Shown here one piece after another: positions 57,001-57,539 of a stretch of 57,539 bases of DNA. The stretch covers positions 226,514 through 284,052 of the forward strand of contig NW_018408904.1 of the NCBI RefSeq assembly GCF_002113885.1. Reading direction: 5' to 3'. Position numbers: made by a program. Source of the DNA: Mizuhopecten yessoensis. Its lineage: Eukaryota. Position 1 is the first letter of the stretch. Each line of letters opens with the position of its first letter.

Positions 57001-57539
57001 TCAGTTGTAATTCAACTACTCTAGGTTGAATTGATTTTCTTCATGTTTTAATGGATATTATAGTATCGTTGTTAAACCAAATGTATTTCTTACTATTTCA
57101 GTTGTTCAAGTGAAGTACTGTGAAAAAAGTAAAGCAACCCATTGTATTTACTTGAAGGAGCACAGTGTCCGTGAGGGAGATAAATGTAAACCAAAGGAAA
57201 CCACACTGTTTCTACTGAACATACCACCCTATTGTAAGGAGGTAAGAACTGTTTCTACTGAACATACCACTACTGTAAGAAGGTAAGAATACCACCCTAT
57301 TGTAAGGAGGTAAGAATACCACCCTTCTGTAAGGAGGTAAGAATACCATCCTATTGTAAGGAGGTAAGAATACCACCCTATTGTAAGGAGGTAAGAATAC
57401 CACCCTATTGTAAGGGGTAAGAACAGTTTCTACTGAACATACCACCCTACTGTAAGGAGATAAAAACTGTTTCTACTGAACATACCCCCCACCCCCCTAA
57501 TGTAAGGAGGTAAGAACAGTTTCTACTGAACATACCCCC

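What the first reader, a model, noticed from the sequence alone, without database searches (positions are those of the whole stretch)
57207..57539. Mirror case: RRP7A exon-2 donor duplicated in tandem (at least 7 extra GTAAG donor copies)
Seen: right after the true donor (57241|57242), the exon end plus donor is repeated as 27-bp (IPPYCKEVR-type) and longer units. Use of the second donor (57283) adds 41 nt, a frameshift. Use of any later donor includes AGG TAA, a stop. One copy (57460) has lost its GT. Inference: these are competing strong 5' splice sites in which only the most upstream one is productive. Units containing AG|GT are also the substrate proposed in the tandem-duplication model of intron gain.
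Basis: partly seen in the sequence, partly recalled or inferred. Interest (0 to 1): 0.72.

Follow-up and report, generated by a model that had tools for sequence, protein, structure and literature searches.

The report
Scallop RRP7A splice donor repeated in intron
A short tandem repeat in a scallop ribosome-assembly gene began on the exon 2/intron 2 boundary, so the splice donor is copied at least seven times into the intron; the same arrangement is already known from several human genes, so it is a tidy but ordinary case.

Summary
The window is Yesso scallop (Mizuhopecten yessoensis), not human. Exon 57104-57241 is 100% identical to the NCBI protein "RRP7A-like isoform X2".

A tandem array starts 37 nt before the end of exon 2 and runs off the window end. 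It has ten units of 43, 41, 27, 27, 27, 27, 26, 43, 50 and at least 24 nt. Seven extra donors are intact and one is dead. They pair with U1 as well as the true donor does. None gives an in-frame product.

The annotated protein and 26 collinear orthologues fit the first donor only.

This is a minisatellite whose first monomer spans an exon-intron boundary. That kind is described for human F7, IFI6, CBS, LMNB2 and PDGF, where the most upstream donor is used alone or almost alone (PMC1557585).

Tandem repeats cover 28% of this window. Donor motifs are not enriched in its arrays. The array is most likely a young, near-neutral by-product.

Actual competition between the donors is untested. The link to intron gain does not hold.

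Verdict: a new member of a known kind, of low to moderate interest.

The parts
55974..56025 (+). RRP7A-like coding exon 1: ATG, 17 codons, then the first base of the Val18 codon. The donor acag|gtattg follows at 56026.
   Evidence: The N-terminal peptides of P0001 are found in frame from 55974. The sequence was read.
56026..57101 (+). Intron 1 (1076 nt, phase 1), ending in tatttcag.
57102..57241 (+). Exon 2 (140 nt). It encodes residues 18-64 of the annotated protein, ending ...LFLLNIPPYCKE.
   Evidence: 100% identity over 46 aa to P0001. Pfam RRM_Rrp7, E = 2.1e-05, 24.9 bits against a cut-off of 25.7, for the exon alone.
57242..57247 (+). Authentic donor GTAAGA of intron 2 (gag|GTAAGAAC).
   Evidence: P0001 continues with EHLRR directly after PPYCKE. 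U1 pairing: 8 of 11 positions, -9.6 kcal/mol.
57205..57247 (+). U0, the founding monomer of the array: the last 37 nt of exon 2 plus the first 6 nt of intron 2.
57248..57288 (+). U1, a long unit of 41 nt. Its donor copy is at 57283 (aag|GTAAGAAT). Using it adds 41 nt and shifts the frame.
57289..57422 (+). U2 to U6, five short units (27, 27, 27, 27 and 26 nt) made of the 3' part of the long unit. Donor copies lie at 57310, 57337, 57364, 57391 and 57417. U2 and U5 are identical to the 27-nt core of U0.
57423..57465 (+). U7, a long unit of 43 nt whose donor copy is dead (GAGATAAAA, with A in place of G at 57460).
57466..57515 (+). U8, a long unit of 50 nt with a C-rich insertion. An intact donor copy lies at 57510.
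57516..57539 (+). U9, the start of a further long unit, cut off by the end of the window.

Best explanation
This is an intronic minisatellite whose first monomer spans the exon 2/intron 2 boundary of the Yesso scallop RRP7A-like gene.

**Origin (inferred).** A 43-nt segment was duplicated in tandem. It held the last 37 nt of exon 2 and the first 6 nt of the intron. Its 27-nt 3' part was then amplified further, presumably by replication slippage or unequal exchange. The result is at least nine extra units inside intron 2.

**Effect on the gene.** Every unit brings along the exon end and the donor, so the intron starts with a row of donors as good as the real one. The gene still works because the first donor met after exon 2 is the one spliced to exon 3. 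The copies are then removed as part of the intron.

**Significance.** The array is most likely a young, nearly neutral by-product of a genome rich in minisatellites, not a device.

**Shown:** the anatomy, the equal U1 pairing of the copies, and the frame consequences.

**Shown indirectly:** the first donor is the productive one.

**Inferred:** the copies are silent or nearly so, and the array has no function.
For: **Gene and junction.**
- Exon 2 is 100% identical to the NCBI M. yessoensis RRP7A-like protein. That protein reads PPYCKE|EHLRR.
- The Pecten maximus orthologue has the same length, 276 aa, with no gaps.
- 26 of 26 named orthologues have no insertion at the junction.

**Array.** Copies of the unit occur only here in the window.

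**Donor copies.**
- They pair with the U1 5' end as well as the true donor: -9.2 to -9.6 against -9.6 kcal/mol, and 7 to 9 against 8 of 11 positions.
- None of the 7 extra donors keeps the frame. One gives +41 nt. The other six include the TAA at 57284.

**Genome background.**
- Tandem repeats of period 10 or more cover 16113 of 57539 bases (28%) in 22 arrays.
- Passages of PMC10225492 put tandem repeats as the largest repeat class in a scallop genome, at 21.7%.
- Donor-like GTRAG occurs in the consensus unit of 3 of 22 arrays, against about 5.0 expected. Arrays here are therefore not built around donors in general.

**Age.** The Lys63 codon AAG is unique to this species among 26 orthologues. 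It is present in all 9 complete units. This fits a young, lineage-specific array.

**Precedent.** PMC1557585 describes human F7 intron 7, whose first 37-bp monomer spans the boundary and where only the most upstream donor is used. It cites IFI6, CBS, LMNB2 and PDGF as further cases.
Against: - No transcript data could be reached, so the use of each donor is unmeasured.
- The annotated protein is called isoform X2.
- In two of the human precedents (IFI6 and CBS) the next two donors are also used (PMC1557585, Introduction). Some unproductive splicing is therefore plausible.
- The mammalian rule of the most upstream donor has not been tested in molluscs.
- The array is cut off by the window end. 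The assembly could not be checked against reads.
Confidence: 0.78

Rival explanations
1. The copied donors really compete with the first donor. A sizeable share of transcripts is then spliced at 57283 or later. These carry a frameshift or the TAA at 57284 and are degraded. In this reading the array lowers, or tunes, the output of a ribosome-assembly gene.
For: - The copies pair with U1 as well as the true donor.
- They carry the same 21 to 37 nt of exon sequence upstream.
- All seven give non-productive products.
- In human IFI6 and CBS the two nearest pseudo-sites are used as well as the true one (PMC1557585, Introduction).
- No RNA structure masks the copies: fold z-score -0.63 and no inverted repeats.
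Against: - In F7, LMNB2 and PDGF only the authentic donor is used. In F7 even pseudo-sites improved to 91% of consensus do not compete (PMC1557585, abstract and Discussion).
- The units are diverging. One donor is dead, one unit carries a 1-nt deletion and one an insertion. This does not look like selection on the copies.
- No transcript evidence was available.
Confidence: 0.12
2. The row of donor copies acts as a cluster of U1 snRNP binding sites. It would strengthen the definition of exon 2, or protect the start of intron 2 from premature cleavage and polyadenylation.
For: There are seven strong U1-complementary sites within 270 nt downstream of the exon. The idea that intronic U1 binding has such effects is recalled knowledge, not tested here.
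Against: - Donor motifs are not enriched in this window's arrays: 3 of 22 against about 5.0 expected.
- Units decay freely.
- The array appears to be lineage-specific, although RRP7A is conserved across animals without it. This rests on protein-level collinearity only.
Confidence: 0.05
3. The array, or its size, is an assembly artefact.
For: - The window holds two N runs.
- It is very rich in repeats.
- The array reaches the window end, so its far side was not seen.
Against: - The units differ by substitutions, a 2-nt and a 1-nt deletion and a 7-nt insertion, and come in two unit lengths in an ordered pattern. Collapsed or duplicated reads would not produce that.
- No N lies within 7 kb of the array.
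Confidence: 0.04
4. The units are raw material for intron gain, or are spliced as micro-introns or recursive sites between units.
For: Each unit holds AG|GT. The duplication model of intron gain uses AGGT (PMC3265369, Discussion).
Against: - The AG|GT here is an existing junction inside an existing intron.
- The mRNA junction is AG|GA, because the next exon begins with Glu.
- The would-be acceptor is GGAG, preceded by purines, and the unit spacing is 27 to 41 nt.
Confidence: 0.01

Closest known systems
Human F7 intron 7: a 37-bp VNTR whose first monomer spans the exon 7/intron 7 boundary (Borensztajn et al. 2006, PMC1557585)
   Same: - The tandem array begins in the last bases of an exon.
- The authentic donor is followed by a row of copies of equal sequence.
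- Only the most upstream donor gives the normal mRNA.
- No RNA structure explains the choice of donor (here).
   Different: - The scallop monomer takes 37 nt of exon and only 6 nt of intron. F7 takes 4 nt of exon and 33 nt of intron.
- There are two unit lengths here (43 and 27 nt), and the copies are already diverging.
- The donors are much closer to consensus (GAG|GTAAGA against UGG|GUGGGU).
- The organism is a mollusc.
- Donor usage and copy-number polymorphism are untested here.
Human IFI6 (6-16) intron 2, CBS intron 13, LMNB2 and PDGF minisatellites, as listed in the Introduction of PMC1557585
   Same: The first monomer spans an exon-intron boundary, so the donor is reiterated in the intron.
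   Different: - In IFI6 and CBS the next two donors are also used. In LMNB2 and PDGF only the first is used. Which pattern holds in the scallop is unknown.
- Unit sizes differ (81 and 100 bp are the ones given in that Introduction, for PDGF and LMNB2).
- I saw these cases only as cited in PMC1557585, not in the original papers.
Intron gain by tandem duplication of an exonic AGGT (Rogers model; Hellsten et al. 2011, PMC3265369; a potato RdRp case, PMC4974935, seen only in the search listing)
   Same: A tandem duplication of a segment holding AG|GT leaves the mRNA unchanged when the upstream GT is used.
   Different: - There the AGGT lies inside an exon and a new intron is born.
- Here the AG|GT is already a junction. 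The duplication only lengthens an existing intron, and the mRNA junction is AG|GA.

Membership tests
Minisatellite with first monomer spanning an exon-intron boundary (F7 intron 7 type) | Head-to-tail tandem array of units of about 10-100 bp | tested here: met
   The TRF rows have periods of 43, 27 and 50. The unit map shows ten units.
Minisatellite with first monomer spanning an exon-intron boundary (F7 intron 7 type) | The first monomer holds the end of a real exon and its authentic donor | tested here: met
   U0 is 57205-57247. The exon end at 57241 is fixed by 100% identity to P0001 and by the PPYCKE|EHLRR junction.
Minisatellite with first monomer spanning an exon-intron boundary (F7 intron 7 type) | The donor is reiterated in the intron with the same or nearly the same sequence | tested here: met
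   There are 7 intact copies. Their U1 duplex energy is -9.2 to -9.6 against -9.6 kcal/mol for the true donor.
Minisatellite with first monomer spanning an exon-intron boundary (F7 intron 7 type) | Only, or almost only, the most upstream donor is used in vivo | not testable with these tools
   No transcript data were available. Indirect support comes from the annotated protein and 26 of 26 collinear orthologues, and from no other donor being in frame.
Minisatellite with first monomer spanning an exon-intron boundary (F7 intron 7 type) | Copy number varies between alleles (VNTR) | not testable with these tools
   Only one assembly window was available, and no scallop DNA is held in the collections offered.
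Intron gain by tandem duplication of exonic AGGT | The duplicated AGGT lies inside coding sequence and is recreated at the exon-exon junction of the mRNA | tested here: not met
   Exon 2 ends in GAG (phase 0). The next residue is Glu, codon GA., so the mRNA junction is AG|GA.
Intron gain by tandem duplication of exonic AGGT | The intron is bounded by the two copies of the duplicated segment | not testable with these tools
   The 3' end of intron 2 lies beyond the window.
Recursive splice sites (acceptor joined to donor, YAG|GTAAG) | A pyrimidine tract and YAG directly upstream of the regenerated donor | tested here: not met
   The units read ...CTATTGTAAGGAG|GTAAGA. There is G at -3 and purines at -8 to -4 (sequence).
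RRP7A (ribosomal RNA-processing protein 7 homologue A) | Rrp7 RRM-like N-terminal domain and orthology to annotated RRP7A | tested here: met
   Pfam PF17799 scores E = 2.1e-05 on exon 2 alone, at 24.9 bits, just under the whole-protein cut-off of 25.7. Exon 2 is 100% identical to the annotated scallop protein, which carries PF17799 and PF12923.

The most novel reading that the evidence does not exclude
The scallop array is more than drift. Donor copies at 57283 and beyond would be used at a level that depends on copy number or on cell state. Intron 2 would then act as a dial that sends part of the RRP7A transcripts to decay, and so sets the supply of a ribosome-assembly factor. Even if that is wrong, the locus would give the first test outside mammals of whether the first donor after the exon wins over equally strong copies.
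Probability: 0.1. Interest if true: 0.5.

Novelty: new member of a known kind. Interest (0 to 1): 0.25.

Why it matters
The arrangement is a natural experiment on how the spliceosome picks one donor among equals.

In the scallop the copies are close to consensus and sit 27 to 43 nt apart. Public RNA-seq of this species could therefore show whether the rule found in human F7 also holds in a mollusc. That rule says the most upstream donor wins.

For annotation it is a warning. In scallop genomes, where tandem repeats are the largest repeat class, arrays can start on splice junctions and mislead gene predictors.

It does not bear on intron gain. Nothing here suggests a new mechanism.

Tried and rejected

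**Read-through protein.** A search with exon 2 read through to the stop (60 aa, candidate lengths 33-105 aa) found no candidate. This is weak evidence, because it says nothing on transcripts.

**Structure and RNA families.**
- RNA fold of 57102-57539: z-score -0.63, with 23 of 100 shuffles folding at least as well. No structure masks the copies.
- Inverted repeats in 56900-57539: 0 pairs.
- Rfam over the whole window: 0 matches.

**Pfam on open frames.** I scanned 149 of the 212 stop-to-stop frames of 50 aa or more that lie mostly outside arrays, choosing those starting between 9170 and 54287. Ten hand-picked frames had gone into earlier. Only the GNAT piece scored. Most of the other frames were not scanned.

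**Candidate exon 24394-24482.** No Pfam match even at E up to 10. My impression that it resembles an exonuclease motif is recall only and is dropped.

**General link between minisatellites and donor motifs.** Rejected: 3 of 22 arrays against about 5.0 expected.

**Literature.**
- A search for bivalve + minisatellite + intron + splice site found 0 papers.
- Searches found no further precedent beyond PMC1557585.
- One search on yessoensis and minisatellites gave only unrelated papers.

**Orthologous intron in other scallops.** Not checked.

**Supplements.** I did not open the supplements of PMC10225492. Table S13 there may give the tandem-repeat share of this very species.

**Joined exons.** The joined exon 1 + exon 2 sequence was not made or searched. 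Exon 2 was searched on its own, and exon 1 was located by looking up the public protein's N-terminus in the window.

**N runs.** The two N runs were left untouched.

Full report
**What the window is.** The window has 36% G+C, a CpG observed/expected ratio of 0.35, and two N runs at 24205-24247 and 49423-49722. I left the N runs untouched.

The translated exon 57104-57241 is 100% identical over 46 aa to the NCBI protein [quoted passage not shown] (P0001, 276 aa). It is 80% identical to the Pecten maximus orthologue. On its own it matches Pfam RRM_Rrp7 with E = 2.1e-05, at 24.9 bits, just under the whole-protein cut-off of 25.7.

I therefore take the contig for Yesso scallop, not human. The restrictions for human contigs did not come into play.

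Exon 2 was searched alone. Exon 1 was located by finding the public protein's N-terminal peptides in the window's six-frame translation. The joined exon 1 + exon 2 sequence was neither made nor searched.

**Gene model in the window.**
- Coding exon 1 runs from the ATG at 55974 to 56025 and is followed by acag|gtattg.
- Intron 1 is 56026-57101.
- Exon 2 is 57102-57241: 140 nt, entered in phase 1 and left in phase 0.

P0001 reads ...LFLLNIPPYCKE|EHLRRMF.... The annotated mRNA therefore uses the donor at 57241|57242.

The P. maximus protein has the same length and aligns without a gap. In an alignment of 26 named orthologues no sequence has an insertion at this junction. These 26 came from molluscs, a brachiopod, annelids, nemerteans, amphioxus and echinoderms, and were chosen from the 120 rows listed, leaving out unnamed rows. 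The nearest indel is a 2-residue insertion in one annelid, 8 residues downstream.

**The observation.** Tandem Repeats Finder reports three overlapping rows between 57205 and 57536, with periods of 43, 27 and 50. Cutting the array after each GTAAGA gives ten units:

| Unit | Coordinates | Length | Note |
|---|---|---|---|
| U0 | 57205-57247 | 43 nt | Last 37 nt of exon 2 plus GTAAGA |
| U1 | 57248-57288 | 41 nt | Long unit |
| U2-U5 | from 57289 | 27 nt each | The 3' part of the long unit |
| U6 | to 57422 | 26 nt | Short unit with a 1-nt deletion |
| U7 | 57423-57465 | 43 nt | Donor mutated to ATAAAA |
| U8 | 57466-57515 | 50 nt | C-rich insertion |
| U9 | from 57516 | at least 24 nt | Cut by the window end |

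- The 27-nt unit has 6 matches at up to 3 mismatches. The 21-nt head of the long units has 5. All lie inside the array, against 0.00 expected from shuffles. The unit is therefore local and is not a dispersed element within this window.
- Seventeen of the window's 50 GTAAG, and 7 of its 8 AGGTAAGA, lie here.
- The seven intact extra donors are at 57283, 57310, 57337, 57364, 57391, 57417 and 57510.

- the 41-nt addition at the second donor;
- the in-frame TAA at 57284-57286 for every later donor;
- the dead copy at 57460;
- the IPPYCKEVR reading of the 27-nt units in another frame.

- The true donor scores 8 of 11 positions and -9.6 kcal/mol.
- The copies score 7 to 9 of 11 and -9.2 to -9.6 kcal/mol.
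- Upstream of 57200 only 41 of 3635 GT dinucleotides reach 8 of 11.

The copies also carry the same 21 to 37 nt of exon sequence upstream. Nothing in the sites themselves favours the first one.

The RNA of 57102-57539 folds no better than shuffles, with a z-score of -0.63. There are no inverted repeats. I found no structure that hides the copies.

**What it is.** It is a minisatellite whose founding monomer straddles an exon-intron junction.

The exon is the source and the units are the copies. The exon sequence encodes the most conserved stretch of the domain: T52, L53, F54 and P59 are invariant in 26 of 26 sequences.

The codon for Lys63 (AAG) creates the second GTAAG in each unit. Lys at this position occurs in 1 of 26 orthologues, this species alone, while P. 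maximus has Asn. All 9 complete units carry AAG. Either the array arose after that substitution, so after the split from the Pecten lineage, or it is kept alike with the exon by conversion. U2 and U5 are identical to the core of U0, while units further downstream differ more.

**Background.**
- Tandem repeats of period 10 or more cover 16113 of 57539 bases (28%) in 22 arrays.
- Passages of PMC10225492 state that tandem repeats are the largest repeat class (21.7%) in a related scallop genome, and that they did not shrink among six scallops. I did not open its supplements, which may hold the figure for this species.
- With about one array per 2.6 kb, some arrays are bound to start on junctions. 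This is my inference; I could not count it genome-wide.
- Donor-like GTRAG is present in the consensus unit of 3 of 22 arrays, against about 5.0 expected from the density in non-repeat sequence. There is no general tie between arrays and donor motifs in this window.

**How it most likely works.** The first donor after exon 2 is spliced to exon 3, and the copies leave with the intron. This is indirectly shown by the annotated protein, the collinear orthologues, and the fact that no other donor is in frame.

That the copies stay silent is inferred from precedent. In human F7 the first 37-bp monomer of a VNTR spans the exon 7/intron 7 boundary. The identical pseudo-sites are functional when the sites upstream are destroyed, but normally only the most upstream site is used, in several cell types. 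Pseudo-sites raised to 91% of consensus still do not compete (PMC1557585: abstract, Introduction, first Results section and Discussion read).

That paper's Introduction lists further genes with the same layout:
- IFI6 and CBS, where the two nearest pseudo-sites are also used;
- LMNB2 and PDGF, where only the first is used.

Some use of 57283 and 57310 in the scallop is therefore plausible. It would yield frameshifted or stop-bearing transcripts.

**What it is not.**
- The duplication model of intron gain requires an AGGT within coding sequence, so that removal of the segment between the first GT and the second AG restores the mRNA (PMC3265369: abstract and Discussion read). Here the AG|GT is an existing junction, and the mRNA junction is AG|GA because exon 3 begins with Glu. 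The duplication lengthened an intron and did not make one.
- Splicing between units would need GGAG as acceptor, with G at -3, purines just upstream, and distances of 27 to 41 nt. I regard it as very unlikely. This is an inference.

**Open points.**
- A search for a read-through protein found nothing. That is weak evidence.
- The array's full length is unknown, since it runs off the window.

**Verdict.** It is a new member, the first I could find in a mollusc, of a known kind: minisatellites that start on a splice donor. On prior mollusc reports, one search found 0 papers, and searches found only the F7 paper. Interest is low to moderate, mainly as a ready-made test of donor choice outside mammals.

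Noticed in passing
22137-24371 (and 24372-24482): A 27-bp array of about 82 copies. It carries 77 GTAAGT on the minus strand. On the plus strand each unit reads like a branch point plus CAG (TACTGAC...TATACAG). The array ends about 20 nt before a candidate acceptor, tttacag|G at 24393/24394. A candidate exon, 24394-24482, follows and ends at atg|gtatga. The exon has no Pfam match and is unverified. An N run lies inside the array and was left alone.
   Followed up: partly
whole window: Tandem repeats of period 10 or more cover 28% of the window in 22 arrays. Kilobase-sized arrays have units of 27, 64, 57, 47 and 42 bp.
   Followed up: partly
12-743 (-): An uninterrupted open frame of 243 aa matches the Arf family at E = 1.6e-62. 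It looks like an intronless Arf/Arl-type GTPase gene.
   Followed up: no
3735-4934 (-): An open frame of 399 aa with a GRF zinc finger (E = 2.1e-09) and no other domain found.
   Followed up: no
48055-48441 (-): An open frame of 129 aa with a weak GNAT acetyltransferase match (E = 0.00032, 21.4 bits against a cut-off of 20.7). It is probably one exon of a gene that runs towards the CG-rich stretch and the N run at 49341-49722.
   Followed up: no
57234 and each unit: The species-specific Lys63 codon creates a second, weaker GTAAG (att|GTAAGG, 6 of 11 positions, -4.8 kcal/mol). It lies 8 nt upstream of the true donor and of every copy. Using it would remove 8 nt and shift the frame.
   Followed up: yes
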